64,000 nucleotides of DNA from Nitrospirota bacterium (GCA_040758355.1 JBFLWF010000010.1:1776-65775), one strand, 5' to 3'; positions 27,628-61,735 are shown, counted from the first letter of the stretch. Numbers and translations: made by a program. The notes: generated from the sequence alone by a model not told the origin.

Positions 27628-27637
27628 TCATAAACAA

Positions 27638-27672
27638 AAAAGGCGGGGCATAAGCCCCGCCTTTAAGTTTTT
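27638..27672 (+). terminator. Rho-independent terminator after the octaheme cytochrome gene
   Basis: aggcggggc-ataa-gccccgcct followed by ttaagttttt. Confidence 0.8.
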
Positions 27673-27706
27673 ACAAAAACCCAAAGGATTGGAGGGGAAG
27701 GGGAGT

Positions 27707-28216: not shown

Positions 28217-28247
28217 TTCATATAAACAAAAAAAGAGGAGGTCATAG

Positions 28248-31583: not shown

Positions 31584-31587
31584 AGAT

Positions 31588-31619
31588 AGAGTGCCGGAGT
31601 GCTTGCACTCCGGCACTCT
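31588..31619 (+). other. Perfect 14-bp stem / 4-nt loop hairpin between napA and napG (no U-tract)
   Basis: agagtgccggagtg-cttg-cactccggcactct. Confidence 0.7.
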
Positions 31620-31642
31620 AATATAAGACCTATAAGACTTAT

Positions 31643-33968: not shown

Positions 33969-34586
33969 TCATGGATTAATGACTCCTCTGAGGATAAGTG
34001 CAGCGCCTTTGTAAAAATCTTCTTGTGTAGACTCTAATACTTTATCCGCAAAAAGAGGCAGCCACAATGTCATATGTTCGCTAAGAAAGTCGCTTCTTAT
34101 CTCAAAGAGCCTCGATGCATCTTCACGCTGTCCCTGCTCAAAGAGTTCTATTATTTTTTGCGTCAGGTAATAGATAAACTCAAGCTCTATGCCGATATGG
34201 TCATCAGGAATGCTGTAAAGGTTCTTCACAGCCATGCCTGCTTCAAGGTATCTTTTCCTGACATCAATGGTCTCGTCTGTCATTAAGGATCTGGACTCTG
34301 ATAAATAAAAAGAGGCATAAGGCACTGCTGGAGGATTTTTAGGCCCTATGAATAAACGGGCATATTCGAGTGCAAGTTCTTCGAGCCACTCATCAAGCCT
34401 GTATTCATTCTTTCTGATTGATTCGATCAGGAGTTTCAGCCCATAGTTTATTTCAGCGTCTGTTTCATCTGGAGGATCAATCTTTGCGAGCTCATTAATC
34501 AATTCTTTTGTCGGCTCTTTTAAAAATAACTGCCTCAAAAGATTGTATAAATAAAGTTCTTCTCTTAATTCGTCTATCATTGTCAC
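33969..34586 (-). CDS. TorD/DmsD-family molybdoenzyme maturation chaperone
   Basis: 205 aa with YARLFIGPKNPPAVPYASFYL...DHIGIELEFIYYL, typical of TorD-like chaperones. It sits directly downstream of the Mo subunit. Confidence 0.75.
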   Translation of the reverse strand: MTMIDELREELYLYNLLRQLFLKEPTKELINELAKIDPPDETDAEINYGLKLLIESIRKNEYRLDEWLEELALEYARLFIGPKNPPAVPYASFYLSESRSLMTDETIDVRKRYLEAGMAVKNLYSIPDDHIGIELEFIYYLTQKIIELFEQGQREDASRLFEIRSDFLSEHMTLWLPLFADKVLESTQEDFYKGAALILRGVINP

Positions 34587-34596
34587 CTCTTATTTG

Positions 34597-34651
34597 GTTG
34601 ATGAGTATATGAGTAAATGGGTAAATGAGCAAACACCCATCTACCCATTCA
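34597..34651. repeat. Octamer-array hairpin between the Mo-subunit gene and torD-like gene
   Basis: gttgatga gtatatga gtaaatgg gtaaatga - gcaaaca - cccatcta cccattca. Confidence 0.7.
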
Positions 34652-34661
34652 CTGTTTTTTC

Positions 34662-37538
34662 CTATGCCTTTTTAACCCTAATCATCATATCCGCATAGGC
34701 GCTCTGTCCCATTATGGGGCTTAGTGCATCCGGGTCTATCAGGTTGTTGCAGTCAGGCGTATAATCCTTTGACTTGTAAGCGGTGCCGAGGCCGGGGCTG
34801 AACCTGCCGCCGGAGCCGAATGCGATTTTGACGACACCGGGGCGTATGCCGCCAGATGCAAAAACCTTTCCCTTCGTGGATTTCCCGAGCGGGTTTTCTG
34901 CGATGACGAGGTCGCCGCTCTTTATACCGAGTTTTTTCGCATCATCGGAGTTCATCCAGATTGTGCCCACCGAGAAAGTATTGGCCTTGAATTTCCGCGT
35001 GATGGTTTTCATCGGCTCATCGCCCACAGGCATTGCTTCAGGCACTTCAGCCTCAAACTCGTTGTTCATAGGCATCCAGAGACCTTCAGCCTTTACCTCG
35101 CCGAGCCACGGCACCATCTGCGTGCCTGTCATGGAGTGGTGTATCCTGCCGGTAATAAGCTGGAACGGATAATCCTTCGCATACTTTTTGTACTCGGGAT
35201 TTGTGTGGGGATTCCATACGGTTTCAAACCAATAAAAGGTCTCCGGGAACTTGTCGAATCCGATTCTCTTAAGTCCGTAAGGCACTTCGCCGCCGGCTTT
35301 TTCAATGAGCTGGTTGTATTTTGCATATCTCCCTTTGCGTTTATCGCCGTCTTTGTAGTCCCATTTGAACTCAATAAGTTTTGAATCCGTCGGCGGCCAT
35401 ATTTTATGCGGTTCATCCGCATTGTGTTTTTTATATCTATACCAGCTCATCGGCCATACAGCAACCCCATGATTCTTTCTTAACCATGCAGGCGTAACCT
35501 GTTCTCCGACCACTTCCTTTTTCTCATGGTCTATCTTCACATTGCCCTTCTCAAGGGATTCAGGGGTTCCTCTGAGTGTATATCCTTCAGGATACTGAGG
35601 ATACGGCAAAGGCGTTCCGATGTTGGGTTTTCCAGGGGTTCCCAGTATCAGGTCGGTGGCAAAGGTATCTTCATCTTTATACCTTTCCCAGAAGTCACCT
35701 GGCTTTATATCGGTGTCGCCGAGTTCATGGAACTTCTTCGCGAGGAGATTCATTATCTCCGTAGGGTTCTTGGATTCGTGTAAGGGCTTGATAACTGCAT
35801 CCCTGAGATAACCAAGAGGCATAGGCGGATATATATCAGACCAGCTTACCCTTTCGGCATAACTCGCTTCCGGCAATATCACATCGGCATAGAGGGCGCT
35901 TTCAAGATTCAATGTGTCTATGAACACCATGAGGTCAAGTTTGTAATTGCCTGAAGCGTCCTTTGCCGTAAGCGCCTCCCTCCATCTCCATGTGGCGGAG
36001 CCGCTTACAACAGAGTTTCCTGTCCTTAGAATGTACGCCTTTATGGGATATCTGTGCCCTCTGAAAGAACCGTACCCTATCTGAACCTCTTTCCCTTCAA
36101 AGAACTCAGGGTAATCACCGACAACATCATCCCATGCCGCAGGGTATTTACTCCCATAATGGTCTTTGTTGAGCTCGCTTACTTTGCCTTCAACCTCTTT
36201 TCCGTCAATCATGCGTTTTACTTTTCTGTCAACGAATTTTTTGTTTTCTACAAATGAGAATTCCCTTCCCTTGCCGCCTTTGCTCCATTTCATTATCTCG
36301 CAGTCAATCACGCCGCCGGGTGCATCAAAATTTCCGGTAATCACATTCAATGCTACGCCCAAAATAGAGCCGCAGTAGCCGTTAAAGTGGTGTCCCGGAG
36401 ACTGCATACCCCAGACGAGTGCAGCGGGCTTGGTAATACCGAAGGTGTGGGCGAGTTCAGCGATGTCATCCTTTGAAACGCCGGCTCTCTCGGAAACCCA
36501 CTCAAGGCTGAAGTAGTTCAGACCGTTAATGGGGTCTTTTTTATGCCACCATGATTTGAATGCCGCCTCAAATTCATCCCAGCCCGTGGAATACTTCTTG
36601 AAGCTCCAGTCGATATACTTTTTGCTTGGATCGTTCTGGTTGTCGTTTTCAAGGATATAACGGAGCATTGCTGCAAAAATGTCATTATCCGTTCCGGGTC
36701 TTGGCGCTATCCACTTGTCTGCAAGCGATGCGGTATTTGAATAGCTCGGGTCTATGACGAAATACTTGCATCCATTTTCAACTCTTGCGCCGACAGTGCC
36801 CCTGTTTTCATACATAATTCTTGTAGCCACAAAGGGGTTCCAGCCGCAATAGACAATGAGCTTCGTTTTGTAGGACATGTCTTTTTTCAAGCTGCCGTCG
36901 GGCTGTCTTACATAGACAGGTCTCATCAAATCAGGCTCCCATCTCTTGCCACCGACAATGAGTTTCGGCCCATGCCTTCTCGGGGTGTCGCATATGGAGC
37001 CGTGCTCAACAACATTTGATGTGCCGAAAGCAAAGAAGAGCCGCCAGTACTGGTCTCTGTCCGTCACATCGCCGGTGTCCATAATGATTGATTCCGGACC
37101 GTGCTTCTTTTTTATCTCCATCAGCTTTTTGCCGATATGGTCTATGGCCTCATCCCATGTGACGCGTTTGAATTTGCCCGAACCCCTTTCTCCGACCCTT
37201 ATCATAGGATATTTAAGCCTGTAAGGAGAATAAATCAACTGCTGTCCCGATGCGCCTTTAGCACAGACAATACCGTCGTTAAAAGGCACATGCGGGTTGC
37301 CGTAAATCTTGTGGACCTTGCCGTCCTTCACCCAGAACTCAAGGCCGCACTCACTGGGGCACATACAGTCGGCGCTGTACTTGACTTCATATTTGCCCAT
37401 TGCCTTCTGCATTGCCTCTGCTTCAGCAGGGCTCAGATGCTTTAATGACATGAGCCCGCTCTTTTCCAGCGCTGCAACACCGGTGAGCGCACCAGCATAT
37501 TTTAAAAATACCCTTCTCGATACTTGCATATTCTTCAC
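34662..37538 (-). CDS. Tat-exported Mo-bisPGD oxidoreductase catalytic subunit, Psr/Phs/Ttr/Arr-like, substrate unknown
   Basis: Tat signal SRRVFLKYAGALTG. N-terminal FeS motif DCMCPSECG...CAKG. Candidate Mo-ligand Cys in HGSICDTPRR; 958 aa. Confidence 0.75.
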   Translation of the reverse strand: MKNMQVSRRVFLKYAGALTGVAALEKSGLMSLKHLSPAEAEAMQKAMGKYEVKYSADCMCPSECGLEFWVKDGKVHKIYGNPHVPFNDGIVCAKGASGQQLIYSPYRLKYPMIRVGERGSGKFKRVTWDEAIDHIGKKLMEIKKKHGPESIIMDTGDVTDRDQYWRLFFAFGTSNVVEHGSICDTPRRHGPKLIVGGKRWEPDLMRPVYVRQPDGSLKKDMSYKTKLIVYCGWNPFVATRIMYENRGTVGARVENGCKYFVIDPSYSNTASLADKWIAPRPGTDNDIFAAMLRYILENDNQNDPSKKYIDWSFKKYSTGWDEFEAAFKSWWHKKDPINGLNYFSLEWVSERAGVSKDDIAELAHTFGITKPAALVWGMQSPGHHFNGYCGSILGVALNVITGNFDAPGGVIDCEIMKWSKGGKGREFSFVENKKFVDRKVKRMIDGKEVEGKVSELNKDHYGSKYPAAWDDVVGDYPEFFEGKEVQIGYGSFRGHRYPIKAYILRTGNSVVSGSATWRWREALTAKDASGNYKLDLMVFIDTLNLESALYADVILPEASYAERVSWSDIYPPMPLGYLRDAVIKPLHESKNPTEIMNLLAKKFHELGDTDIKPGDFWERYKDEDTFATDLILGTPGKPNIGTPLPYPQYPEGYTLRGTPESLEKGNVKIDHEKKEVVGEQVTPAWLRKNHGVAVWPMSWYRYKKHNADEPHKIWPPTDSKLIEFKWDYKDGDKRKGRYAKYNQLIEKAGGEVPYGLKRIGFDKFPETFYWFETVWNPHTNPEYKKYAKDYPFQLITGRIHHSMTGTQMVPWLGEVKAEGLWMPMNNEFEAEVPEAMPVGDEPMKTITRKFKANTFSVGTIWMNSDDAKKLGIKSGDLVIAENPLGKSTKGKVFASGGIRPGVVKIAFGSGGRFSPGLGTAYKSKDYTPDCNNLIDPDALSPIMGQSAYADMMIRVKKA

Positions 37539-37541
37539 CTC

Positions 37542-38204
37542 CTACTGGTTGATTAAGCCGTCGGCTGTTTTAAATACTTCCTTATCCGGAGCAATGAAAT
37601 GAACCCTCGGTTTTGTTCCATAATCCGGATGCCATGTCTCCGTCTTTTCTGAAGCCTTGAGCTTTGAAACGGCGCTGTTGGAATCGTTTAAATCACCAAA
37701 AGTCCTTGCCCGTCCCATGCAGTTGCGGACACATGCAGGCTCTTCGATACCTGCTGCGAGCCTATGGCTGCAAAAGTCGCACTTGTCGACAACCCTCAAA
37801 TCCTTTGCCTTCTTTCCTTTAACCTCAGGCACGTCTTTGGCGTATTTTGACGGATCGTTTTTGACAGGGATATGCGGATGTATAAACCGTGCGCCGTAAG
37901 GACATGCACCAACACATCTGCCGCAGCCGATGCATATGTCCCTGTCCACCATAACTACGCCGTCCTCCCGTTTGTAAGTAGCCCCTGTGGGACAGGGAAG
38001 GATGCACGGCGGCTCATCACACTGGTTGCAGATTTTAGGGAAAAAATACCTCTTTGGTTTCGGATATTCGCCCATATCGGCGATATCCACCCTTGACCTG
38101 AACTGCCCTATCGGCGCTGCATTTTCCATCTTGCAGCTTACCTGGCAGGATGTGCAGCCCACGCACTTCCTCAGGTCAACAAGCAATGCATACTTTTTTG
38201 ACAT
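37542..38204 (-). CDS. Four-cluster iron-sulfur subunit (DmsB/PsrB family)
   Basis: CVGCTSCQVSCK, CNQCDEPPCILPCPTGA, CIGCGRCVGACPYGA, CDFCSHRL...PACVRNC. True start ATG 38204 (MSKKYALLVD) after AAAGGAGGA. The track's TTG 38246 lies inside the promoter. Confidence 0.85.
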   Translation of the reverse strand: MSKKYALLVDLRKCVGCTSCQVSCKMENAAPIGQFRSRVDIADMGEYPKPKRYFFPKICNQCDEPPCILPCPTGATYKREDGVVMVDRDICIGCGRCVGACPYGARFIHPHIPVKNDPSKYAKDVPEVKGKKAKDLRVVDKCDFCSHRLAAGIEEPACVRNCMGRARTFGDLNDSNSAVSKLKASEKTETWHPDYGTKPRVHFIAPDKEVFKTADGLINQ

Positions 38205-38241
38205 AATAGCTCCTCCTTTCATGTGGAATTTGAAAGAGAAA

Positions 38242-38257
38242 AGCAATCATTATGCCA
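38242..38257 (-). promoter_or_regulatory. Sigma-54 (-24/-12) promoter for the FeS/Mo/TorD operon
   Basis: The minus strand reads TGGCAT-aatga-TTGCT with GG-N10-GC spacing, matching the consensus TGGCAC-N5-TTGCW. It lies about 38-53 nt upstream of ATG 38204. Confidence 0.7.
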
Positions 38258-51106: not shown

Positions 51107-54100
51107 TTATTTTCTGAACTCCCTCCCTTTCCATATCATATATATTGCCGGATAGATTATCAACTCAAGGATGGTGGATGTAATCACGCCGCCGACCATT
51201 GGAGCTGCAATCCTCTTCATGACATCGGCTCCTGTGCCGTGGCTGAACATAATGGGAACAAGACCTGCGAGTATAACGCTGACAGTCATAATCTTTGGAC
51301 GTATCCTTTTTACAGCACCGTGCATGATCGCATCCTTGAGGTCATTTATACCATTGAGTCTGCCTTCCTTTTTCCATTTCTCATACGCTAATTCGAGATA
51401 GAGGAGCATTACCACGCCTGTCTCGGCATCGAGTCCTGCAAGTGCTATTATCCCAACCCATACAGCTATGCTCATGTTGTAATTAAGCAGATAGAGGAGC
51501 CAGAAAGAGCCGACAAGAGAGAAAGGCACTGCCAATAATACGATTGCGGTCTTTGTAACCGACTTTGTATTGAAGTAGATAAGCACGAAAATGATGAGCG
51601 CCGTGAGTGGAATAACGAGTTTCAATCTTTCGTGTGTTTTAACTATATATTCGTACTCGCCGCTCCACTCAAGGCGATAACCTTCTGGAATCTTTAAAGA
51701 TGCGACTTTCTTTTTTGCCTCTTCAACATATCCGCCCACATCCCTGCCTGAGAAATCTATATATACATACGATGCCAAAAGCCCTTCTTCGCTTTTTATC
51801 TGTGTAGGGCCTCTTACAATCTTTATGTCCGTTAGTTCTCCCAGTGGCACCTGAACAATATTCATTGCTGCCGGCTGCACGCTGCCCATCGCCGACCTTT
51901 GGCCGCTGACAGCTGGCTGCTGACTGTTCATTACAGGCACAAGCACCCTTTTGAGTTTTTCTACGTCATTTCTTAATTCCCTCGAATAGCGGACATTTAC
52001 AGGATACCGCTCCCTGCCTTCGACTGTGGTGGTAAGGCTCATGCCACCAATAGCAGACTGAATTATTTCGTTGACATCGTCAATATTCAAACCGTATCTT
52101 GCTGCTTCCTCCCTTTTAATGTTGAAGTCGAGGAAATATCCTGTTGTCACCCTTTCTGCATACACGCTCCTTGTGCCTGGAATTTCCTTGATATGGTTCT
52201 CTAATTCAAGTCCTAATCTTTCTATCTCTTCAAGTTTCGAACCCATTACCTTAATGCCCACAGGAGTCCTTATGCCTGTAGAGAGCATATCTATGCGGGC
52301 TTTTATCGGCATTGTGAATGAATTTGCCACTCCGGGAATGCTCAGTGCATCATTCATTTCATTTTTCAGGCTTTCGACTGTAACGCCAGGCCTCCATCCC
52401 GATTCAGGCTTCAGGTTGACCACTGTCTCGAACATCTCAAGCGGCGCAGGGTCTGTAGCAGTTTCTGCCCTGCCAGCCTTTCCGAATACCTGTGCCACTT
52501 CAGGGATACCCTTCAGTATCTTGTCCTGCATTTGCAAGAGGCTTGAGACCTCCGATATGGAAGCGGCAGGCACTGTTACAGGCATATAAAAGAGTGTGCC
52601 TTCATATAATGGCGGCATGAATTCCGAGCCGAGCTTGATAAAGGGGTATACGGTAACTGCCATAATGATTATTGCGAGGATAATAACCGTCTTTTTAAAA
52701 CGCAGTGCGAGGCTCGCTATGGGTTCGTAAATTTTATGAAGGATGACACTTATCGGATTCTTTTCCTCCGGCCTTATTTTTCCCCTGATGAAAAGGGTCA
52801 TTAATACAGGCGTCAGCGTTACTGCAAGGAATGATGAAAAAAGCATTGCAAAGGTCTTTGTGTAAGCCAGAGGCTTAAAGAGTCTTCCTGCCTGCGCCTG
52901 AAGGGTAAACACCGGAAGAAATCCCACTGTAATCACAAGGAGTGAAAAGAAAAGGGAAGGGCCGACCTCTTTTGCAGCATCGATTATCACATCTATCCTG
53001 CTGCCCTGTCTGCCGTGTTCTTCCCATTCTTCGAGCTTTTTATGTGCGTTTTCCACCATTATGATGGACGCATCCACCATTGCTCCGATGGCAATGGCTA
53101 TGCCGCTTAAGCTCATGATATTCGATGTTACGCCGAGATAATACATGCATATGAACGAAATGATGATTGCAACAGGCAGCGTCAATATAACTACAAGGGC
53201 ACTCGGCAGATGGAATAAAAACACGATACAGACTGCGCTCACCGCAACAGAGAGTTTTATGATTTCTTCTTTAAGAGTATCGATTGAGCGGTGTATGAGA
53301 TCAGACCTGTCGTAGGTCACGACAATTTTCATGCCCTTCGGAAGGCTCGGCTCTATATCCTTTTTGATTTTTTCCTTAACCCTGTCTATGACACTAAGGA
53401 CATTCTCGCCGAATCTCACAACTACGATGCCTCCTGCCACCTCTCCTTTCCCATCAAGCTCTGCAATACCCCTCCTTATTTCAGGACCGAGCTGTATGTT
53501 TGCAATATCCTTTAAAAATACAGGCGTTCCTGCTCCGTTTGTGCCCACAGATATGCTTTCGAGGTCTTTGAGGCTTTTAATGTAGCCGCGTCCCCTTACC
53601 ATGTATTCTATACCAGAGAATTCAAGCACTCTTCCTTCCACGTCCTTATTGCTTTTCTTAATTGCCTCCATGACTTTTGGCAGGGGTAGATTGTATGCAA
53701 GAAGCTTGTTGGGGTCTATTGTAATCTGGTACTGTTTTACAAACCCGCCGATGCTTGCAACCTGTGAAACCCCTTCAACGCTTTCGATGGCGAGTTTTAT
53801 GTTGTAGTCCTGGACCGAGCGAAGCTGCGATAGATCATGATTGCCTGTTTCATCTATCACCGCGTATGAGAATCCCCACCCTACGCTGGTCGCATCCGGG
53901 CCGAGCACGGGATTCACATCAGCGGGTATCTTGCTTTTAACCGCCTGCAGATACTCAAGCACCCTGCTTCGGGCCCAGTAAATATTTGTCCCTTCTTCAA
54001 AGATGACGTATATGAACGAGCTGCCGAGATACGAAAATCCGCGAACCACCTGCACCTTCGGAGCAGCGAGGAGCGTGGATGTTATAGGATATGTTATCTG

Positions 54101-54289
54101 GTCTTCCACAAGGTCAGGGCTTCTTCCGGGCCATTCCGTAAAGATGATTACCTGTGTGTCGCTCAAATCCGGTATGGCATCGAGGGGAGTCTTTTTGAGT
54201 GCCCAGTATCCCCATACTATGAGAAAAGCAACGAGCAGAAAAATGATAAACTTGTTGCGTGCGCTGTATTCGATTATCTTTGCAATCAT
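51107..54289 (-). CDS. cusA: Heavy-metal efflux RND transporter, CusA/CzcA family
   Basis: 1060 aa with a 12-TM RND layout and typical N-terminus MIAKIIEYSARNKFIIFLL...DAIPDLSDTQVIIFTEWPGRSP. It carries a heptamer-derived segment QQPAVSGQRSAMGSVQPAAMN. Confidence 0.9.
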   Translation of the reverse strand: MIAKIIEYSARNKFIIFLLVAFLIVWGYWALKKTPLDAIPDLSDTQVIIFTEWPGRSPDLVEDQITYPITSTLLAAPKVQVVRGFSYLGSSFIYVIFEEGTNIYWARSRVLEYLQAVKSKIPADVNPVLGPDATSVGWGFSYAVIDETGNHDLSQLRSVQDYNIKLAIESVEGVSQVASIGGFVKQYQITIDPNKLLAYNLPLPKVMEAIKKSNKDVEGRVLEFSGIEYMVRGRGYIKSLKDLESISVGTNGAGTPVFLKDIANIQLGPEIRRGIAELDGKGEVAGGIVVVRFGENVLSVIDRVKEKIKKDIEPSLPKGMKIVVTYDRSDLIHRSIDTLKEEIIKLSVAVSAVCIVFLFHLPSALVVILTLPVAIIISFICMYYLGVTSNIMSLSGIAIAIGAMVDASIIMVENAHKKLEEWEEHGRQGSRIDVIIDAAKEVGPSLFFSLLVITVGFLPVFTLQAQAGRLFKPLAYTKTFAMLFSSFLAVTLTPVLMTLFIRGKIRPEEKNPISVILHKIYEPIASLALRFKKTVIILAIIIMAVTVYPFIKLGSEFMPPLYEGTLFYMPVTVPAASISEVSSLLQMQDKILKGIPEVAQVFGKAGRAETATDPAPLEMFETVVNLKPESGWRPGVTVESLKNEMNDALSIPGVANSFTMPIKARIDMLSTGIRTPVGIKVMGSKLEEIERLGLELENHIKEIPGTRSVYAERVTTGYFLDFNIKREEAARYGLNIDDVNEIIQSAIGGMSLTTTVEGRERYPVNVRYSRELRNDVEKLKRVLVPVMNSQQPAVSGQRSAMGSVQPAAMNIVQVPLGELTDIKIVRGPTQIKSEEGLLASYVYIDFSGRDVGGYVEEAKKKVASLKIPEGYRLEWSGEYEYIVKTHERLKLVIPLTALIIFVLIYFNTKSVTKTAIVLLAVPFSLVGSFWLLYLLNYNMSIAVWVGIIALAGLDAETGVVMLLYLELAYEKWKKEGRLNGINDLKDAIMHGAVKRIRPKIMTVSVILAGLVPIMFSHGTGADVMKRIAAPMVGGVITSTILELIIYPAIYMIWKGREFRK
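51905..51926. repeat. Short heptamer array inside cusA (GCTGACA GCTGGCT GCTGACT)
   Basis: 7-nt periodicity read directly; it is translated in the antisense orientation as ..SGQRSA... Confidence 0.7.
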
Positions 54290-54293
54290 GTTA

Positions 54294-55529
54294 TCAGTGT
54301 TTGTGTCCGCCGAGGGGCGCTACATTTTTCAGTTTTGCCTCGGAGTCTATGAGGAACGTGGCTGATGAAGCGACCTTCTCGCCTGCCTTCAACCCCATTA
54401 TTACCTCCCTCAATCCTTCGGCTCTCAATCCGAGCATTACCTCTCTCGGTTCGAAATACCCTTCTCCTCTGTCAACATAGACTATCTGCCGCGTGCCGGT
54501 GTCTATTATCGCATCTTCCGGAATGGCAAGTTTGTTGCCGATGTTAATCTTTATCTCCACGTTGGTGAACATCTGGGGCTTAAGCTGTCCGCCTGGGTTT
54601 GGGATGGTAAACCTTATATTTGCCGTTCTCGTTTCACCCGCAAGCGAGGGATAGATATAATCTATCGCTGATGAAAATTCCTTGCCCGGGAAATAACTAA
54701 GGCTGATGTTCGCCTTTTGTCCGGTCTTTATCAGAGGCAATTCGTATTCATAAATATCCGAAACTACCCATACCGCAGACAGGTCTGCCACATCGAAGAG
54801 TTTTTCTCCGGGCATGATACGCATGCCCTGCAATGCCGTCTTTTGCACGATGTAGCCGTTTACAGGACTGTAGACGGTAAGTGTCCTTATAGGTTTTCCG
54901 GTCTCTTCGATTTTTTTAATCTGGTCATCCGTTATATCCCAGAGCCTTAACCGTTGTTTTGCGGCTTCAACTATAGCCTCTGCATCCTTTGAGAGGAGGT
55001 TGCCTATGCGCTCATTCTTTATTTCCTTGCCCTGTTTTGTCCATTTAACGACATTCAGATATTCCTGCTGCGTTGCGAAAAGCTCAGGACTATAAATATC
55101 CGCGAGAGGCTCTCCTTTTTTGACATATCTTCCCGTATAATCCACGTAGAGCTTTTCTATCCATCCTTCGAATTTCGTATTGACGGTAAACAACCTGCGC
55201 TCGTCGTATTCGATGCGTCCGACTGTCCTGATGATCTTCTGGAGGGGTTTTACGGACACCTCGACTGTTTTTACTCCTATCAACTGCTGCTTGTCCGGAG
55301 GTATTTCTACTGTGGGAGGCTCTTCAGGCGTTTGTTCCTGTGCTGTTGTTTGCTGCTGAGATATGTTTTCTCCGGTATGGACTTGATGTTCCGAAGACTG
55401 TGCTTTTGCGGATTCCGCACTTTTGGTTTTAAAAATAGTGCTCAGAGATATTGCCTTCGAAAAATAAAATAAAATACCGGCAATTAAAATTAATCCCGCT
55501 GCGATTATTAATAATTTTCTCTTTTTCAT
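54294..55529 (-). CDS. cusB: Efflux RND periplasmic adaptor subunit (CusB-like)
   Basis: 411 aa with an N-terminal anchor, biotinyl-lipoyl-like and beta-barrel blocks (GWIEKLYVDYTGRYVKKGEPL...VNGYIVQK...). It lies between the OMP and RND genes. Confidence 0.85.
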   Translation of the reverse strand: MKKRKLLIIAAGLILIAGILFYFSKAISLSTIFKTKSAESAKAQSSEHQVHTGENISQQQTTAQEQTPEEPPTVEIPPDKQQLIGVKTVEVSVKPLQKIIRTVGRIEYDERRLFTVNTKFEGWIEKLYVDYTGRYVKKGEPLADIYSPELFATQQEYLNVVKWTKQGKEIKNERIGNLLSKDAEAIVEAAKQRLRLWDITDDQIKKIEETGKPIRTLTVYSPVNGYIVQKTALQGMRIMPGEKLFDVADLSAVWVVSDIYEYELPLIKTGQKANISLSYFPGKEFSSAIDYIYPSLAGETRTANIRFTIPNPGGQLKPQMFTNVEIKINIGNKLAIPEDAIIDTGTRQIVYVDRGEGYFEPREVMLGLRAEGLREVIMGLKAGEKVASSATFLIDSEAKLKNVAPLGGHKH

Positions 55530-56854
55530 TTCCCCTCCTGACTGCTGACTGCTGTTATCGCCTCAACCCTTGCTATTGCCTTTTCCCTTTCGACGAACTG
55601 ATTCCAATAGAGGGTCTCAAGCTCGATAAGGGATTTCAGCCTCGATATAACTGTAATGGCCTCAACCCTTCCGGTGACATATCCTGAAAGGGCTGATTCA
55701 AAATCCTGATATGTCTTTGGGATTAATCCGTTTTTATATAATTCCATTAATTTTTCTGCTGTCCTGAGCATGGAGTAATTGTCCCTGATTGCCGAAGACA
55801 ACATTATCTTGGTTGATTCAAGTTCATGCCTTGCCTCTGACAAGGATGCCCCTGCCTCATTGACTGCCTGTTTCTGTTTTGTCTTATAAAAGATCGGGAT
55901 ATTGATAGTAGTTGTAATACTCCACATATCGGGTACTTCTTTATTTCTTAAAAAATAGCTGCCGTTGATTGTAAAGTCAGGATAGTATTCCTTTTTGGCC
56001 ATTTGAACCTTTGCCTCTGCCCCTGCAACCATCTTCTCTTTGACCCTTATCTCAGGGGAATTTGCATATGCCGTATTAATTAACCCCTCCATGTTTTGCG
56101 TGAATGCGGTGTATGACAGTTCGGCAGGCCTGCCGAGGGGCGAGCTGACATCCCTGCCTATAGTGGTATTAAGCATCGCTTCTATGGATTGTATTTTCTG
56201 TCCGAGCATCTCCTCTTTCTCAAGGAGCATATACTTTTCTGTCTGGGCCATTAATACCTCTTGCTGTGAGGCCATACCTGCTGAATATCGTGAAAGTGCT
56301 GCATCCTCTATCCTTGAAAAGAGATTGGTTCTGTCTTTGATAAGGTCAATATTCTTATATGCAAGAAACAGCTCATAATAAAACTCCTTGACACGTGCTG
56401 TGGTCCTTAACCGGATGACTTCGGAGAATGCCTTTTGGCTTTCAGCATCCCATGAAGCCATTTCGCCTTTCAGAGATAATTTCCCCGGGAAAGGGAATGT
56501 TTGAGAAGCTGAGAACATCCACTGAGAATCCGGGGAGTCAGAGAAGTTATAGAGCTTCCTGAAACCTTCATTCTGATAGCCGAACATGAGCATTGGGTCG
56601 GGAAGGCTCTTTGCCTGCGGTATTCTGAATTTCGAGGCATTTATTTTTGCTTCGGCAACAAGGATTTCATGATTGTTTTTCAATGCCTCGTCGATTAGGC
56701 TCTGAAGATTTAATTCCTCGGCAAAGGCAAATGAAGCTGACAGCTGACAGCCGACAGCTATCAGCAAAAGACAAATCGTACTAATACGTTTTATCTTTCT
56801 ACTGATAGCTGAACGCTGATTGCTTAAAGCTGCCTTTTTACCTTGCATCCACAT
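55526..56854 (-). CDS. TolC-family outer membrane efflux protein (CusC-like)
   Basis: 442 aa with the two-repeat OEP architecture (LQSLIDEALKNNHEILVAEAKI... / ...INTAYANSPEIRVKEKMV...). The signal region is built from heptamer arrays. Confidence 0.85.
   Translation of the reverse strand: MWMQGKKAALSNQRSAISRKIKRISTICLLLIAVGCQLSASFAFAEELNLQSLIDEALKNNHEILVAEAKINASKFRIPQAKSLPDPMLMFGYQNEGFRKLYNFSDSPDSQWMFSASQTFPFPGKLSLKGEMASWDAESQKAFSEVIRLRTTARVKEFYYELFLAYKNIDLIKDRTNLFSRIEDAALSRYSAGMASQQEVLMAQTEKYMLLEKEEMLGQKIQSIEAMLNTTIGRDVSSPLGRPAELSYTAFTQNMEGLINTAYANSPEIRVKEKMVAGAEAKVQMAKKEYYPDFTINGSYFLRNKEVPDMWSITTTINIPIFYKTKQKQAVNEAGASLSEARHELESTKIMLSSAIRDNYSMLRTAEKLMELYKNGLIPKTYQDFESALSGYVTGRVEAITVISRLKSLIELETLYWNQFVEREKAIARVEAITAVSSQEGK
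56735..56824. repeat. Two heptamer arrays in the 5' end of the TolC-like gene
   Basis: agctgac agctgac agccgac agctatc agcaaaa (56735..56769) and ctgatagctgaacgctgattgct (56802..56824). cagctatcag and ctgatagctg are reverse complements. Confidence 0.85.
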
Positions 56855-57233
56855 TGAATTTCACTGTTGTTGTCTTGCCGCCGCGTATGATTTTTACGGC
56901 AATATTCCATGCACCAGACATGGAGAGATTCATCTTCGCCTTGTACTCGTTGCCTTTCAATTCTGCGTCGGTTTTGTAATTCATCGCAGGCATTCCGGGC
57001 ATTGCCGGCATGGAGTATTCGACCTTTACCTTTGCATCAGTGACATATTTGCCGGCAGCATCTTTGACTTCTATCTCGATATTGTTATCACCAACAACAG
57101 GCGGGTTTTTGTCGATTTTTACCTCAACATCATACTCTCCTGCTTTTTTCTTTACCTCATAATCCTTTGCATAGGCGATTCCTGCGATGAGAAGCAGGAT
57201 CAGAGTAAACACTACTAACTTTTTCATGTTCAT
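56838..57233 (-). CDS. FixH/YtkA-like periplasmic protein with Met-rich motif
   Basis: Signal peptide, then KIDKNPPVVGDNNIEIEVKDAAGKYVTDAKV...MPAMPGMPAM...GAWNIAVKI; 131 aa. Confidence 0.65.
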   Translation of the reverse strand: MNMKKLVVFTLILLLIAGIAYAKDYEVKKKAGEYDVEVKIDKNPPVVGDNNIEIEVKDAAGKYVTDAKVKVEYSMPAMPGMPAMNYKTDAELKGNEYKAKMNLSMSGAWNIAVKIIRGGKTTTVKFNVDAR

Positions 57234-57294: not shown

Positions 57295-58020
57295 TCAGAT
57301 GCCTTCTGCATTATATTTGCCTTTAGGCAGATTCTGTTTTATTGCATCAGGGAAGACAAAGATAACGCCATCTTCAAGTTTTTGCTTTTTTATCTTCATT
57401 CTCAATTCCCAATTACCGCCTCTTTGGAAATCAAGATTCTTTATTGTGTACAGGCCGCCTTTTTGTTCGGTAACGGAGAGCGCAACGACACCACCATGGT
57501 CTGGAGGAGATGCTCCGTGTATCAGCAGATCAACATGTATCTTTGCGCCTTCCACATCTTCATCATGCGAGCCGTGTATGACAATCCCAACATCATTCTT
57601 GCCGATTTTGAATTCTTTGCCGTCCAGCAGCATTTCTACGCTGAATAAGCCTTTGTCCGTGATTTTAAAAAGGCTGTTATCGCGATGCTTTGTGAATTTG
57701 GGCTTTTCGGCTTCCATGCTGCGTCCATCCGAATGAGTATAAACGGTGCCGATATATTTCTCCGGGTCCTTTTTGAATTCTTCAAGGCACATCAGGCAGC
57801 ATAAGCTGTAGATTTTACCTTTATATTCGTATTTATATGTTTGCGCCGTTTTCTCATCGATTTTATCACCGCTTACCGGGCACATTTTTACATGTTCATG
57901 AGGGGTTGCCTGCCCGGACATTCCATTTTTCTTATTGTGGTCATGATCTTTATGTCCCTCGGCATAAACTCCTGATAGCAATAAAAGGATCGGCACAATT
58001 ATTACAATAAATTTTTTCAT
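57295..58020 (-). CDS. Secreted YHS/TRASH-domain protein fused to a FixH-like domain
   Basis: His-rich leader GHKDHDHNKK. YHS block CPVSGDKIDEKTAQTYKYEYKGKIYSLCCLMCLEEFKKDPEKY. C-terminal beta-rich FixH-like domain. Confidence 0.7.
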   Translation of the reverse strand: MKKFIVIIVPILLLLSGVYAEGHKDHDHNKKNGMSGQATPHEHVKMCPVSGDKIDEKTAQTYKYEYKGKIYSLCCLMCLEEFKKDPEKYIGTVYTHSDGRSMEAEKPKFTKHRDNSLFKITDKGLFSVEMLLDGKEFKIGKNDVGIVIHGSHDEDVEGAKIHVDLLIHGASPPDHGGVVALSVTEQKGGLYTIKNLDFQRGGNWELRMKIKKQKLEDGVIFVFPDAIKQNLPKGKYNAEGI

Positions 58021-58028
58021 AATTCCCC

Positions 58029-58427
58029 CTACCGCTTAAACTCTTTTTCAACAGTATCCCGTATCTTTTTTACGGGATAGCCTTTTTTGTAAAGCTCGAA
58101 GGCCCGCAGGGCCTCCCCGAGACAGATGTCTCACATTGCAGCATGGTTGTCAACATAGCAACTGAGGAGGCTCTTGTGCTTAAACACCGGGGACTCCTCG
58201 CACATGCAATAGCAGTATATGCTGTCCAAAACCCATGGGATTTCTTTTGCCACCTGATATGCTTTTTTAATGCGAGGGTCGCTGAACATATCTGGATTAA
58301 GGGTTGCCCTTGTCTCACCTCTCCTCAGGGATTCATCCTTCATCGGCTTTTGTGCGAATGTGTCGTTTGCCGCTGCGAATAGAATTGTTACTATAATCAG
58401 CACTAAGAATGCAGAAAACTTTTTCAT
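58029..58427 (-). CDS. CYCXC/PCYCGC-motif periplasmic protein, candidate selenoprotein (in-frame TGA at 58133..58131)
   Basis: Signal peptide and CYCMC motif. The frame continues through TGA: ...NHAAM-U-DICLGEALRAFELYKKGYPVKKIRDTVEKEFKR* (TAG 58031..58029). A SECIS-like hairpin at 58121..58095 begins 10 nt after the TGA. Confidence 0.6.
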
Positions 58428-58474
58428 TCACTTACCTCCTGTCTTTTTATTTGCAGTATGTTACGCAAATATTT

Positions 58475-58498: not shown

Positions 58499-58534
58499 CC
58501 AAAAAAAGAGGCAGCCTTGGGGGAAAGGCTGCCT
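58499..58534 (-). terminator. Rho-independent terminator after the 104-aa secreted protein gene
   Basis: The minus strand reads aggcagcc-tttcccccaa-ggctgcct followed by cttttttt. Confidence 0.75.
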
Positions 58535-58561: not shown

Positions 58562-58876
58562 TTAATATATAGACCTGATTCTGCCTGTCCTGCAGTCGAG
58601 CAGTATTTTGTCAACGAGTTCTCCGTCTTTATAAACCTCTGCCTCTGCAAATCTCCCGTCCTGCTTTATCAAAACTACCCTTAGCCCCTTTTTCGAATAG
58701 TAAGATTTCAGGGCATCTGTTATCTCTTTTTGCGTAGGCTGTTTGGTGCAGTATCCGTAATCTCCACACAAAGGGCAATAAGCGCCGTATGGGGTAATTT
58801 CATCTCCTGAGCTTTTGGAGTAGGTTCCTGAAAATAAAGATGCAAACAATATAAATATGAAAACAAGCTTTATCAT
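58562..58876 (-). CDS. Small secreted protein (PepSY-like C-terminus?), function unknown
   Basis: Signal peptide MIKLVFIFILFASLFSG, then a Cys pair CPLCGDYGYC and a C-terminal AEVYKDGELVDKILLDCRTGRIRSIY. Confidence 0.5.
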   Translation of the reverse strand: MIKLVFIFILFASLFSGTYSKSSGDEITPYGAYCPLCGDYGYCTKQPTQKEITDALKSYYSKKGLRVVLIKQDGRFAEAEVYKDGELVDKILLDCRTGRIRSIY

Positions 58877-59687: not shown

Positions 59688-61037
59688 TTAAGCACCTCTT
59701 GGGAGATAGATTCTGAATGTAGTTCCTTCATTCACCTTGCTTTCCACCTCAATCTTTCCGCCCATAACATTTACCAGTTCTTTTACGATGGCGAGTCCAA
59801 GTCCTAATCCAGCGGTTCTTGATCCTTCAATCCTGTAAAAACGGTCGAATATGTGCGGCATTTCGTTTTCCGGTATGCCTCTTCCAGAATCCCTTATTTC
59901 TATGTAAAAATCGCTTTCTTCTGTCCCGTAATCAATCCAGACACCGCCCTTTTCTGTAAATTTTAAAGAATTTGATATGATATTTCTTATTATCTTTTCC
60001 AATTTTTCTATATCGGTAACAACCATTAAGTCATCCTCTTTTGCGATAGTTATATCGAGGCGCTTTTCTTTAAATGCCGGCCTCAGTTCTTCGGATAGTT
60101 CTGATATGAATTCCTTGAGATTGACTTCTGCCACCTCCCCCTTTGTGAAGAAACTCGTCTCGGCAGTTGTGATATCCTCTATGCCCTTTATGAGTCTAAT
60201 CAGACGGTTAATCTCGCCTTTTATATTTTCCAAACCTTTCCCTGATTCGATTACTCCATCTTCTATTGCTTCTATATGAGATTTCGTTATTGTCAGCGGC
60301 GTCCTCAGTTCGTGCGCAATATTGGACATAAGACGTTTTCGCAATTCCTCCTCTTTTCGGAGTGATTCTGCCATAATGTTGAAGCTCTCGGATAACCTCC
60401 CGACTTCGTCGCCGGTTTTCGGTGTTATTGTCACATTGAAATCACCTTTTGCAATACTCTCTGCTGCTGTCTTGAGATCGGTCAAGGGTTTTGACAGATA
60501 TCGGCTGAAGAATAGGGCTATTACCAGCGAGCCTCCGCCTGCTATAAGAAATGAGACGAGGATGAAGTTTCTCGACCTCATTCTAAATACGGCTTCCTTC
60601 TCTTTTATCACATCCTTCTCAAATGGCCTCGACAGTAGCTTGCCGATGTTTTTGCCTTCGATGTAAAGAGGGTATTCTTCGTATTTGCCTTCTGTCATGT
60701 GCATGTGAAAGAGTGCTTTCATTCTGCGTTTCATGGTATCCGAAAGGGAGTCCATAACTTCCATGGATGATATAACTTCATGTCCGTCAGCATTAAGGAC
60801 TTTTATATCGAGACCCAGCATCATTGCCCAGTGTATTGATTCTGACAATGCCTTTGTATCCCATTTCCCATCAGAGTAACTGCCTTCAACCGAAGCCAGT
60901 ATCCAGTAGAACTGGTCTTCTTTCACGCCGTTCACGTAGTTGTCGAAATCTTTTATTATCAGCCATTCGAAGATAAAATTGGAAAGAAGTGCTGCAAGGA
61001 TTACAATTATGAACGCAAGAAATATTTTTGTCTTCAT
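59688..61037 (-). CDS. Sensor histidine kinase (HAMP-HisKA-HATPase; BaeS/CusS-like architecture)
   Basis: HAMP LSKPLTDLKTAAESIAKGDF, H-box IAHELRTPLT, DSGRGIP, GLGLGLAIV; 449 aa. Confidence 0.85.
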   Translation of the reverse strand: MKTKIFLAFIIVILAALLSNFIFEWLIIKDFDNYVNGVKEDQFYWILASVEGSYSDGKWDTKALSESIHWAMMLGLDIKVLNADGHEVISSMEVMDSLSDTMKRRMKALFHMHMTEGKYEEYPLYIEGKNIGKLLSRPFEKDVIKEKEAVFRMRSRNFILVSFLIAGGGSLVIALFFSRYLSKPLTDLKTAAESIAKGDFNVTITPKTGDEVGRLSESFNIMAESLRKEEELRKRLMSNIAHELRTPLTITKSHIEAIEDGVIESGKGLENIKGEINRLIRLIKGIEDITTAETSFFTKGEVAEVNLKEFISELSEELRPAFKEKRLDITIAKEDDLMVVTDIEKLEKIIRNIISNSLKFTEKGGVWIDYGTEESDFYIEIRDSGRGIPENEMPHIFDRFYRIEGSRTAGLGLGLAIVKELVNVMGGKIEVESKVNEGTTFRIYLPRGA

Positions 61038-61735
61038 TAATCCGGAATACCTATGAATTTGTAGCCCGTGCCGTATACTGTTTTTATAAACACAGGCCTC
61101 TGGGGATTGTCCTCTATTTTGTGGCGTATGTTCTTTATGTGTGCATCGATAACCCTGTCATACCCTTCAAAATCATATCCCTGAACCGCATTTACAATCT
61201 GAAGGCGTGTGAAAACAATCTGCGGCTTTTCTGCAAGGCAGAGGAGTATCTTAAACTCTGTGGATGTAAGGGGTATAATCTTTCCACCCTTTTTAACCTC
61301 CATGGAAGGAGTGTCTATGAGCAGAAGACTGTTGTTAAATGATAAGAGCTTTTTTTCGTTCTTCTTAGTTCTTCTTAGATGTGCCTTGACCCTTGCCACA
61401 AGCTCCCTCGGGCTGAATGGCTTTATGACATAATCATCGGCGCCAATGCCGAGCCCTTTTATCCTGTCATCCTCGGAGCTTTTAGCAGTGAGCATAATTA
61501 TTGGTACGTCAGAGAACTCCCTTATGGAACTGCATATGGTTTCACCGTCAATGTCCGGAAGCATCAGGTCAAGGATTATGAGGTCAAAATTATTTTTAAT
61601 CTGTTGAAGGGCATCCTGTCCTGTATTTGCTATGGTTACCTTAAAGCCATCCCTCTCAAGATATGACCCGACAATGTCAGAGATCTTTTTTTCGTCTTCT
61701 ACTATAAGAATCTTTTCGCTTGTCAATTTATTCAT
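61037..61735 (-). CDS. OmpR-family response regulator
   Basis: LIILDLMLPDIDG receiver and a winged-helix LTSTEFKILLCL...GTGYKF; 232 aa. Confidence 0.9.
   Translation of the reverse strand: MNKLTSEKILIVEDEKKISDIVGSYLERDGFKVTIANTGQDALQQIKNNFDLIILDLMLPDIDGETICSSIREFSDVPIIMLTAKSSEDDRIKGLGIGADDYVIKPFSPRELVARVKAHLRRTKKNEKKLLSFNNSLLLIDTPSMEVKKGGKIIPLTSTEFKILLCLAEKPQIVFTRLQIVNAVQGYDFEGYDRVIDAHIKNIRHKIEDNPQRPVFIKTVYGTGYKFIGIPD

What the first reader, a model, noticed from the sequence alone, without database searches (positions are those of the whole stretch)
58029..58427. Candidate selenoprotein: CYCXC-motif periplasmic protein with in-frame TGA and SECIS-like hairpin, first gene of the Cu/Ag efflux operon
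Seen: the track ORF (58131..58427) has a signal peptide and a CYCMC motif, and it ends at TGA 58133..58131. The same frame runs 33 more codons to TAG 58031..58029: ...SCYVDNHAAM-[TGA]-DICLGEALRAFELYKKGYPVKKIRDTVEKEFKR. The TGA occupies the first position of a CxxC-like pair (U-D-I-C). Ten nt after the TGA the mRNA can fold as CUC-GG-GAGGCCC-UGC-GGGCCUUC-GAG (58121..58095; 8 bp, 2-nt bulge, 3 bp). Its position and shape are compatible with a bacterial SECIS. Established (from memory): PCYCGC/CYCXC-motif proteins are a periplasmic family for which selenocysteine-containing members are annotated. The gene is only 8 nt upstream of the YHS/FixH gene and the CusCBA genes. A Sec redox or metal-binding protein may therefore take part in metal detoxification.
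Basis: partly seen in the sequence, partly recalled or inferred. Interest (0 to 1): 0.7.

Follow-up and report, generated by a model that had tools for sequence, protein, structure and literature searches.

The report
Selenoprotein gene heading a copper pump operon
The small gene really does read through its TGA as selenocysteine, but it belongs to an already catalogued selenoprotein family (CYCXC / OS_HP4). What this work adds is that the family, whose function is unknown, keeps turning up beside copper-resistance and periplasmic thiol-redox genes.

Summary
The observation and its interpretation both hold. ORF 58427..58131 (-) ends at TGA, and the frame runs 33 more codons to TAG 58031..58029.

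- **Family match.** With Cys at the TGA, the 132-aa product matches NCBIfam NF041379 "CYCXC family (seleno)protein" (OS_HP4) end to end, 127 bits against a cut-off of 90. The truncated ORF scores 82 bits and fails.
- **Recoding.** 95 of 105 related places (the window included) carry TGA at this codon and 10 carry TGT/TGC. Distant homologues have Cys there (UxxC/CxxC). The tail evolves like coding sequence.
- **Hairpin.** An 8-bp hairpin 14 nt after the TGA is present in all 84 TGA forms. It shows compensatory changes and is weaker in the 7 Cys forms.
- **Genetic code.** TGA is an ordinary stop for 11 of 50 other genes in the window.
- **Untested.** selA/B/C/D are not in the window and I could not search the source genome.
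- **Context.** The gene order CYCXC-(YHS)-YtkA-CusCBA recurs in 39 of 57 TGA loci that have enough flank. CusA keeps the Cu(I)/Ag(I) Met triad, and there is no CusF.

Reviews already list this family as a selenoprotein, so this is a new member of a known kind. Its function is still unknown.

The parts
58029..58427 (-). Full gene of the CYCXC-family selenoprotein, 132 codons plus the TAG stop; UGA codon 99 is read as Sec
   Evidence: Searches show the sequence. NF041379 is matched over 1-90/90 at 127.1 bits (cut-off 90) with read-through only. PF13798 at 45 bits.
58353..58427 (-). Predicted Sec-type signal peptide MKKFSAFLVLIIVTILFAAANDTFA|QKP (residues 1-25)
   Evidence: Read from the sequence: a basic start, a 17-residue hydrophobic core, then T-F-A. 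No signal-peptide predictor was available. Homologues carry an N-terminal anchor or a lipobox (PMC13068155).
58200..58214 (-). CYCMC motif (Cys72, Cys74, Cys76)
   Evidence: The three Cys are invariant in alignments A2 and A3.
58122..58133 (-). U-D-I-C motif: Sec codon TGA at 58133..58131 and Cys102 at 58124..58122
   Evidence: TGA in 95 and TGT/TGC in 10 of 105 related places. Cys in 34 of 36 distant homologues. In the AF2 model of P0024 the motif sits at the N-terminus of a long helix.
58098..58116 (-). SECIS-like hairpin: an 8-bp stem GGAGGCCC/GGGCCUUC with loop UGC. The stem starts 14 nt after the TGA.
   Evidence: 91.8% of cells paired, 6 pairs with changes on both sides, 0 of 500 shuffles reach the observed score; mean MFE -14.9 kcal/mol in 84 Sec forms against -7.1 in 7 Cys forms; synonymous sites in the hairpin codons are more conserved, p = 0.004.
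58435..58440 (-). Ribosome-binding site AGGAGG
58509..58534 (-). Terminator-like hairpin plus T-run after the upstream gene. This places the CYCXC gene first in its transcription unit.
   Evidence: 10-bp stem, then CTTTTTTT
57295..58020 (-). Secreted His-rich protein with a YHS domain, starting 8 nt after the selenoprotein gene
   Evidence: PF04945, 39.8 bits. The 45-codon extension after its own TGA stop is not conserved in L003, so that TGA is an ordinary stop.
56838..57233 (-). YtkA/FixH-like secreted protein. It overlaps the start of cusC.
   Evidence: PF13115, 73 bits. It follows the selenoprotein gene in most related loci.
51107..56854 (-). CusC-like (55526..56854), CusB-like (54294..55529) and CusA (51107..54289) heavy-metal RND efflux genes
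   Evidence: TIGR00914, 1099 bits; 47% identity to E. coli CusA, Met573/623/672 conserved, TM4 motif AIGAMVDASIIMVEN. The CusC-like gene is only 20% identical to E. coli CusC and had no NCBIfam hit at 1e-25.
59688..61735 (-). Two-component system (kinase 59688..61037, regulator 61037..61735) upstream on the same strand; a candidate regulator of the operon
   Evidence: best matches are BaeSR-type, and the heavy-metal subfamilies TIGR01386/01387 score below cut-off. Syntenic in L003, L007, L010 and L011. The regulatory link is inferred.

Best explanation
The gene encodes a 132-residue exported protein of the CYCXC/PCYCGC family (NCBIfam NF041379, Pfam PF13798, 'OS_HP4').

**Recoding.** UGA codon 99 is recoded as selenocysteine. 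A conserved 8-bp hairpin starting 14 nt after the UGA serves as the bacterial SECIS. It recruits SelB with Sec-tRNA(Sec) so that the ribosome inserts Sec instead of terminating. Translation then continues for 33 codons, which form the last two helices of a small all-alpha domain.

**Shown here:** the in-frame UGA, the conserved and translated tail, the Sec/Cys pair, the conserved hairpin with compensatory changes, family membership, and the operon context.

**Inferred:** SelB binding, actual selenium incorporation, export, and function.

**Function (inferred, about 50%).** After export by the Sec translocon, the domain displays a U-x-x-C pair at a helix N-terminus next to invariant Cys72/74/76, Cys90 and His95. 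The protein is co-transcribed with a YHS protein, a YtkA-like protein and a CusCBA Cu(I)/Ag(I) pump that has no CusF. It would then work in periplasmic copper/silver handling in one of two ways. It could bind Cu(I)/Ag(I) through thiolate and selenolate ligands and pass the metal toward the pump. Or it could be a selenol/thiol redox partner of the DsbD/CcdA-TlpA pathway that repairs or prevents copper-induced thiol damage.
For: **Recoding**
- 127.1 bits against a cut-off of 90 over the whole NF041379 profile with read-through only; the truncated ORF scores 81.7.
- all 16 full-length genome loci have TGA at this codon and the tail DICLGEALRA[FS]ELYKKGY..KEFKR.
- 95 places with TGA against 10 with TGT/TGC.
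- differences at codon positions 1/2/3 are 3.2/3.0/13.2 in the tail and 6.3/6.5/22.7 upstream; the other frames have stops.
- Cys at this column in 34 of 36 distant homologues.
- TGA ends 11 of 50 other genes in the window, so the recoding is local.

**SECIS**
- on 89 distinct sequences, 91.8% of cells are paired. G-C changes to C-G, A-U or G-C to C-G at three stem pairs, and 0 of 500 shuffles reach the observed covariation.
- every one of 84 Sec forms folds at -10 to -20 kcal/mol; the 7 Cys forms average -7.1 (p = 1e-5).
- third-position conservation is 0.85 in the hairpin codons and 0.64 elsewhere (p = 0.004).
- distant clades (L023-L025) keep an 8-bp stem on the same codons with a different sequence and a 5-nt loop starting UG.

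**Known family**
-.

**Lineage**
- Thermodesulfovibrio genomes are reported to hold selA, selB, selC and selD (PMC5389517).

**Function**
- YtkA/CusC(BA) follows in 39 of 57 TGA loci.
- the CusA Met triad is kept and there is no CusF.
- Cys-form and Sec-form relatives sit in cytochrome c maturation clusters with CcdA and thioredoxin-like genes.
- other neighbours are TlpA-like proteins, YHS-TrxB-like fusions and Met-rich proteins.
- a CopA-type ATPase and YHS genes lie nearby.
- Burkholderia and Paraburkholderia plasmid homologues lie among cueR, multicopper oxidase, dsbD, dsbA, tlpA, copD and an RND pump with a copper-binding protein.
Against: - No selA/B/C/D and no tRNA-Sec in the 64-kb window. 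The source genome could not be searched.
- No curated bacterial SECIS model exists in Rfam to score against.
- On the 17 closest sequences alone, covariation was not significant (73 of 500 shuffles).
- The larger alignment was fitted to the model, and the sequences are related to each other, so the shuffle control overstates significance.
- Part of the hairpin follows from the conserved peptide G-E-A-L-R-A. Two Cys forms keep a 6-bp remnant.
- Function rests on gene neighbourhood only. 18 of 57 TGA loci and all 9 Cys loci with enough flank lack Cus genes downstream.
- The fold has no solved relative, so neither metal binding nor redox activity is supported by structure.
Confidence: 0.85

Rival explanations
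1. The UGA is recoded, but as cysteine rather than selenocysteine. A tRNA(Sec)-like tRNA(Cys) with a UCA anticodon (selC*), delivered by SelB or a paralogue to the same hairpin, would insert Cys.
For: PMC5389517 reports selC* tRNA(Cys) genes in Thermodesulfovibrio and in contigs probably from Nitrospirae. It shows that one such tRNA decodes UGA as Cys in E. coli. Every sequence test run here (Sec/Cys pair, conserved tail, hairpin) fits this reading equally well.
Against: The same paper finds the full selABCD set in all genomes that contain selC*. The selB* and cysS* partners were described in Deltaproteobacteria, not in Nitrospirae. TGA is kept in 95 places even though a single mutation would give a Cys codon, which suggests the encoded residue is not simply Cys. 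The family is curated as a selenoprotein.
Confidence: 0.07
2. The TGA is a real stop. The product is the 98-residue protein, and the downstream 33 codons are untranslated or the remnant of a formerly longer gene.
For: Nearly all public gene calls stop there. No Sec machinery was seen in the window.
Against: The tail shows purifying selection at codon positions 1 and 2 across 17 genomes. It has no start codon of its own. It is needed to reach the family's score cut-off. It carries the invariant second Cys of the CxxC and two helices modelled at pLDDT above 90. TGA is kept in 95 independent assemblies.
Confidence: 0.02
3. Functional rival: the protein is a general periplasmic thiol/selenol oxidoreductase, for example one that keeps apocytochrome c or other envelope cysteines reduced. 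It would have no direct contact with copper or with the Cus pump. The operon link would only reflect copper's damage to envelope thiols.
For: Relatives head Ccm or Ccs cytochrome c maturation clusters with CcdA/DsbD_TM and thioredoxin-like genes. TlpA-like genes follow in L062, L078 and L086. dsbD, dsbA and tlpA lie nearby in the plasmid islands. The UxxC sits at a helix N-terminus.
Against: The fold is not thioredoxin-like and has no solved relative. Seven invariant Cys/His/Sec residues are more than a redox pair needs and look like a metal site. The tightest and most frequent neighbours are metal proteins: YHS, YtkA and CusCBA.
Confidence: 0.35

Closest known systems
CYCXC family (seleno)protein, NCBIfam NF041379 (OS_HP4; part of Pfam PF13798 PCYCGC)
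   Same: Full-length profile match above the curated cut-off. It has the CYCXC motif, a UxxC with Sec at the first position as listed in the reviews, and an N-terminal export signal.
   Different: Nothing structural. The reviews and Pfam give no function. The regular placement in front of YtkA-CusCBA in Nitrospirota is not mentioned in the papers I could search.
E. coli fdhF-type bacterial SECIS / SelB recoding
   Same: A hairpin inside the coding region just after the UGA. The apical loop is 22 nt after the UGA and has a G in its first two bases. From memory, this fits the bSECISearch consensus of 16-37 nt and a G in the first two loop positions.
   Different: A 3-nt loop (5 nt in other clades), no conserved bulged U, and no sequence similarity. 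SelB binding was not tested. Loop UUC in L001 and L011 lacks the G unless the closing pair opens.
CusF of the E. coli CusCFBA system
   Same: A small periplasmic protein encoded with a CusCBA pump. Here it sits in an operon that has no CusF, so it could fill the same metal-delivery role.
   Different: No sequence or fold relation. CusF is a beta-barrel with Met/His/Trp ligands (from memory), whereas this protein is all-alpha and rich in Cys and Sec. The N-terminal Met triad of CusB that receives Cu from CusF is not conserved here.
Periplasmic copper-linked thiol-redox systems (ScsABCD, DsbD-TlpA, CopG with its CxCC motif)
   Same: A Cys-rich periplasmic protein co-located with copper-resistance genes and with DsbD/CcdA and TlpA-type reductases.
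   Different: Not a thioredoxin fold. The resemblance is functional, and partly recalled from memory. No homology.

Membership tests
CYCXC family (seleno)protein (NF041379 / OS_HP4) | Whole-protein HMM score above the curated cut-off of 90 bits | tested here: met
   127.1 bits over profile 1-90/90 with Cys in place of U. The truncated ORF scores 81.7 bits and fails.
CYCXC family (seleno)protein (NF041379 / OS_HP4) | C-Y-C-x-C motif and a downstream U/C-x-x-C | tested here: met
   C72, C74, C76, C90, H95 and C102 are invariant, and column 99 is Cys or TGA.
Pfam PF13798 PCYCGC | Score above the gathering threshold of 25 bits | tested here: met
   45 bits.
Bacterial selenoprotein gene | In-frame UGA aligned with Cys in homologues (Sec/Cys pair) | tested here: met
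   Cys in 34 of 36 distant homologues; 95 places with TGA against 10 with TGT/TGC.
Bacterial selenoprotein gene | Coding conservation continues past the UGA | tested here: met
   codon-position pattern 3.2/3.0/13.2, with stops in the other frames.
Bacterial selenoprotein gene | SECIS stem-loop just downstream of the UGA, conserved as a structure | tested here: met
   The hairpin is present in all 84 Sec forms, has compensatory pairs, and is weaker in Cys forms. No curated bacterial SECIS model was available, and SelB binding was not tested.
Bacterial selenoprotein gene | selA, selB, selC and selD present in the same genome | not testable with these tools
   Absent from the 64-kb window. The literature reports the set in Thermodesulfovibrio (PMC5389517).
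Bacterial selenoprotein gene | Selenium actually present in the protein | not testable with these tools
   Needs 75Se labelling or mass spectrometry.
CusCFBA-type Cu(I)/Ag(I) efflux system (context) | HME-RND pump with the CusA Met573/623/672 triad and the monovalent-type TM4 motif | tested here: met
   TIGR00914 at 1099 bits, 47% identity to E. coli CusA, all three Met residues aligned.
CusCFBA-type Cu(I)/Ag(I) efflux system (context) | CusF periplasmic chaperone and the N-terminal Met triad of CusB | tested here: not met
   no CusF hit in the window (best E = 0.88). CusB Met49/64/66 align to A/Q/Q, though the N-terminal alignment is weak.
Thioredoxin-fold thiol-disulfide oxidoreductases | Thioredoxin fold around the CxxC | tested here: not met
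   an all-alpha model (pLDDT 84.6) with no PDB match at E < 4 or TM > 0.3.

The most novel reading that the evidence does not exclude
In Nitrospirota the CYCXC selenoprotein is the dedicated periplasmic partner of a CusF-less CusCBA pump. It would be a Cu(I)/Ag(I) carrier or Cu-reducing protein that uses a selenolate ligand, and so the first selenoprotein component of an RND metal-efflux system. This would also give the first function to the widespread PF13798 family. A second, less likely twist is that the UGA is read as Cys by a selC*-type tRNA in this lineage.
Probability: 0.3. Interest if true: 0.6.

Novelty: new member of a known kind. Interest (0 to 1): 0.33.

Why it matters
**Annotation.** Most public gene calls for this clade are wrong. 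Over a hundred protein clusters are truncated at 98-101 residues. Some are split into a main gene and a 30-residue tail gene, and some were translated with Trp at the TGA.

**Biology.** PF13798/CYCXC has no known function. Three kinds of neighbour recur:
- CusCBA, YHS and YtkA in Nitrospirota;
- cueR, multicopper oxidase, dsbD, tlpA and copD in Burkholderia plasmids;
- cytochrome c maturation redox genes elsewhere.

Together these give a concrete, testable hypothesis: periplasmic copper/thiol homeostasis, with Sec as a high-affinity soft-metal ligand or a fast redox centre. The gain is modest. It does not change what is known about Sec decoding.

Tried and rejected
- **Rfam.** No match at gathering thresholds on the window. 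A permissive search on 57950..58250 gave only chance miRNA/snoRNA hits. Rfam has no general bacterial SECIS model.
- **tRNA search.** None in the window or in L001-L017, so no tRNA-Sec.
- **NCBIfam scan of about 46 window genes.** No SelA, SelB or SelD.
- **A second selenoprotein at 38246..34662.** The ferredoxin and molybdopterin ORFs are in the same frame and 3 nt apart, but the stop is TAG, followed by an RBS and an ATG. They are two genes.
- **The YHS gene's own TGA with a 45-codon extension.** It is not conserved in L003, so it is an ordinary stop.
- **Six-frame scan for other ORF-TGA-ORF cases.** Nothing credible.
- **PDB.** No match by sequence or by fold.
- **Source contig.** An exact-protein look-up found nothing on record.
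- Alignment A2 was too diverse for the metagenome scan, so A4 was used.
- **Covariation on 17 close sequences.** Not significant. Only the 89-sequence set was informative.
- **L017.** It holds only a remnant of the tail.

Full report
**1. The observation.** The minus-strand ORF 58427..58131 encodes 98 residues and ends at TGA 58133..58131. The same frame continues for 33 sense codons (DICLGEALRAFELYKKGYPVKKIRDTVEKEFKR) to TAG 58031..58029. The tail has no ATG, GTG or TTG of its own. The CYCMC motif is at 58214..58200. AGGAGG lies 7 nt before the ATG. A terminator-like hairpin with a T-run (58534..58509) separates the gene from the one upstream. The next gene starts 8 nt after the TAG. The predicted hairpin exists: GGAGGCCC-UGC-GGGCCUUC at 58116..58098.

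**2. Is the TGA read through?** With Cys in place of the TGA, the 132-residue product matches NCBIfam NF041379, "CYCXC family (seleno)protein" (model name OS_HP4_CYCXC). The match covers the whole 90-position profile at 127.1 bits against a curated cut-off of 90. The 98-residue ORF reaches only 81.7 bits and covers profile positions 1-56. Pfam PF13798 (PCYCGC) also matches.

A protein search returned hundreds of relatives. Nearly all are 98-101 residues long and end at ...HAAM, which is what gene callers produce from a Sec codon. I therefore went to the DNA.
- Sixteen genome loci, from Nitrospirota/Thermodesulfovibrionales MAGs and one MAG labelled Chloroflexota, all carry TGA at this codon. 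All continue with a near-identical 33-codon tail.
- A metagenome scan added 80 loci. Over all places held, 95 have TGA and 10 have TGT or TGC.
- In the tail, pairwise differences fall at codon positions 1/2/3 as 3.2/3.0/13.2. The 45 codons upstream give 6.3/6.5/22.7. The two other frames of the tail contain 31 and 13 stops over the 17 sequences.
- A full HMMER search seeded with the one full-length hit (P0024) found about 890 relatives. In an alignment of 36 of them, Cys occupies the TGA column in 34.
- The remaining two show Trp. For P0024 the DNA shows TGA, so the Trp is a gene-caller artefact. The other, P0143, was not checked.

TGA is not reassigned in this organism. It ends 11 of 50 other genes in the window, cusB and cusC among them. 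The recoding is therefore local.

**3. The hairpin.** On the 17 closest sequences the 8-bp stem is almost always paired, but the sequences are too similar for covariation to be significant (73 of 500 shuffles). I built a covariance model from that alignment and aligned 96 matches from all loci.

On 89 distinct sequences:
- 91.8% of cells are paired.
- Six pairs show changes on both sides. Examples are G24-C45 to C-G in 4 sequences, G27-C42 to A-U in 14, and C30-G39 to G-C in 3.
- None of 500 shuffles reaches the observed values.
- Sliding the 3' arm by one column drops pairing to about 62%.

Caveats: the alignment was fitted to the model, and related sequences inflate the shuffle control.

Three independent observations point the same way.
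- All 84 distinct TGA forms fold between -10 and -20 kcal/mol over nt +10..+51. Seven Cys forms average -7.1 (p = 1e-5).
- Synonymous third positions are more conserved in hairpin codons +5..+12 (0.85) than elsewhere in the gene (0.64; p = 0.004).
- Distant Sec clades (L023-L025) place an 8-bp stem of different sequence (CGAGGCGC/GCGUCUCG, loop UGGAU) on the same codons.

The loop lies 22 nt after the UGA and has G as its second base in most sequences. From memory, this fits the published bacterial SECIS consensus. Rfam holds no general bacterial SECIS model to test against.

**4. Sec machinery.** The window holds no tRNA gene and no SelA, SelB or SelD. It also holds no other credible in-frame-TGA gene. 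This is the one refutation test left open. The literature reports the complete selABCD set in Thermodesulfovibrio genomes. It also reports a tRNA(Sec)-like tRNA(Cys) (selC*) in this lineage (PMC5389517). That leaves a small chance that the UGA is read as Cys.

**5. The protein.** The N-terminus (MKK, then 17 hydrophobic residues, then TFA|Q) reads as a Sec-type signal peptide. Relatives have a membrane anchor or a lipobox instead, so the domain is extracytoplasmic. An AlphaFold2 model of the close Sec-form relative P0024 reaches pLDDT 84.6, and above 90 over most of the domain. It is all-alpha, and the UxxC sits at the N-terminus of the longest helix. Neither the sequence nor the model matches anything in the PDB. 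Invariant residues are Y57, C72, C74, C76, C90, H95 and C102, plus U/C99. That is more than a redox pair needs and suggests a metal site.

**6. Context and likely function.** The gene is followed by:
- a secreted His-rich YHS protein (57295..58020);
- a YtkA/FixH-like protein (56838..57233);
- cusC-like, cusB-like and cusA genes, closely spaced or overlapping.

CusA is 47% identical to E. coli CusA. It keeps Met573/623/672 and the monovalent-type TM4 motif. There is no CusF, and the N-terminal Met triad of CusB is not conserved.

Among TGA-form loci with at least 1.5 kb downstream, 39 of 57 have YtkA/CusC(BA) next, sometimes with YHS in between. None of the 9 Cys-form loci does.

The other neighbourhoods are informative too.
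- System I or II cytochrome c maturation genes with CcdA and thioredoxin-like proteins.
- TlpA-like thioredoxins, YHS-TrxB-like fusions and Met-rich proteins.
- A CopA-type ATPase, and separately YHS genes.
- In annotated Burkholderia and Paraburkholderia plasmids: cueR, multicopper oxidase, dsbD, dsbA, tlpA, copD and an RND pump with a copper-binding protein.

The common thread is periplasmic copper handling together with thiol-disulfide redox. My best reading is a Cys/Sec-rich periplasmic protein that either carries Cu(I)/Ag(I) toward the pump or works as a selenol/thiol redox partner under copper stress. This rests on gene neighbourhood alone.

**7. [quoted passage not shown] NCBI has a curated model that names it. 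The finding is therefore a correct rediscovery: a new member of a known kind. Two points go modestly beyond that. One is the recurrent operon link to a CusF-less CusCBA pump. The other is the cross-phylum copper/thiol-redox neighbourhood of a family still described as of unknown function. I found no paper that makes this link in the searchable library.

**8. Verdict.**
- Observation: confirmed.
- Interpretation: supported.
- Confidence that the UGA is recoded and the full 132-residue protein is made: about 0.9.
- Confidence that the inserted residue is Sec rather than Cys: somewhat lower.
- Confidence in a role in copper/silver handling: about 0.5.
- Interest: about 0.33.

Noticed in passing
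P0001-P0120; L024 6001-6432 and L025 6001-6420; L108 566-976: Public gene calls for this clade are systematically wrong. Most are truncated at the TGA (98-101 aa). Some call the 30-residue tail as a separate gene. At least one (P0024) was translated with Trp at the TGA, apparently under another genetic code.
   Followed up: yes
window 58562..58876 (-): A 104-residue secreted protein with a CPLCGDYGYC motif matches no Pfam or NCBIfam family. It lies just upstream of the selenoprotein gene, separated from it by a terminator. It also lies immediately upstream in L003 and L010, and several kb upstream in L001 and L013.
   Followed up: partly
window columns 58101/58099 of the hairpin; alignment A1 columns 39 and 41: Ala-Phe (GCC UUC) and Ala-Ser (GCU UCC) variants alternate as a perfectly linked pair of changes (8 against 9 of 17 sequences). 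Each version keeps exactly one G-U in the stem, so an amino-acid change looks coupled to RNA pairing.
   Followed up: partly
L009 738-1808, L042 453-1517, L061 3943-5007: In some Sec-form loci the next gene is a fusion: an N-terminal YHS/TRASH-like Cys motif joined to a thioredoxin-reductase-like flavoprotein (...IIIGGGPAGLTAAVYA...). I identified it by eye only.
   Followed up: no
L003 11133-15727: The closest syntenic relative (Thermodesulfovibrionales MAG DeMMO5_1) has about 4.5 kb inserted between the YHS gene and the YtkA gene. The window lacks this insertion.
   Followed up: no
window 54294..55529 (-) and the whole window: The Cus system here has no CusF. The N-terminal Met triad of CusB (E. 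coli M49/M64/M66) aligns to A/Q/Q. Periplasmic metal delivery must therefore differ from the E. coli model.
   Followed up: partly
window 25960..33269 (+) and 33969..38246 (-): There are two molybdopterin oxidoreductase clusters. One is a 1111-aa NapA/Fdh-like enzyme with a multihaem cytochrome and NapG/NapH-like proteins. The other is a PhsA/DmsA-like enzyme with a TAT signal, an Fe-S subunit and a TorD-like chaperone. Both catalytic subunits are Cys-type, not Sec.
   Followed up: partly
window 7441..8106 (+): A gene similar to REP-associated tyrosine transposases (NF047646, 66 bits, below the 80-bit cut-off).
   Followed up: no
L017 9990-10072: A 639-kb Nitrospirota contig keeps only the last 24 or so codons of the tail (SFELYKKGYPVKQIRDTVEKEFK) with no recognisable N-terminal part. 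It is probably a gene remnant.
   Followed up: partly
L027 and L095, hairpin region: Two metagenome contigs carry single-base indels in or just after the hairpin: an extra A in an A-run, and one G missing. These are probably assembly errors.
   Followed up: no
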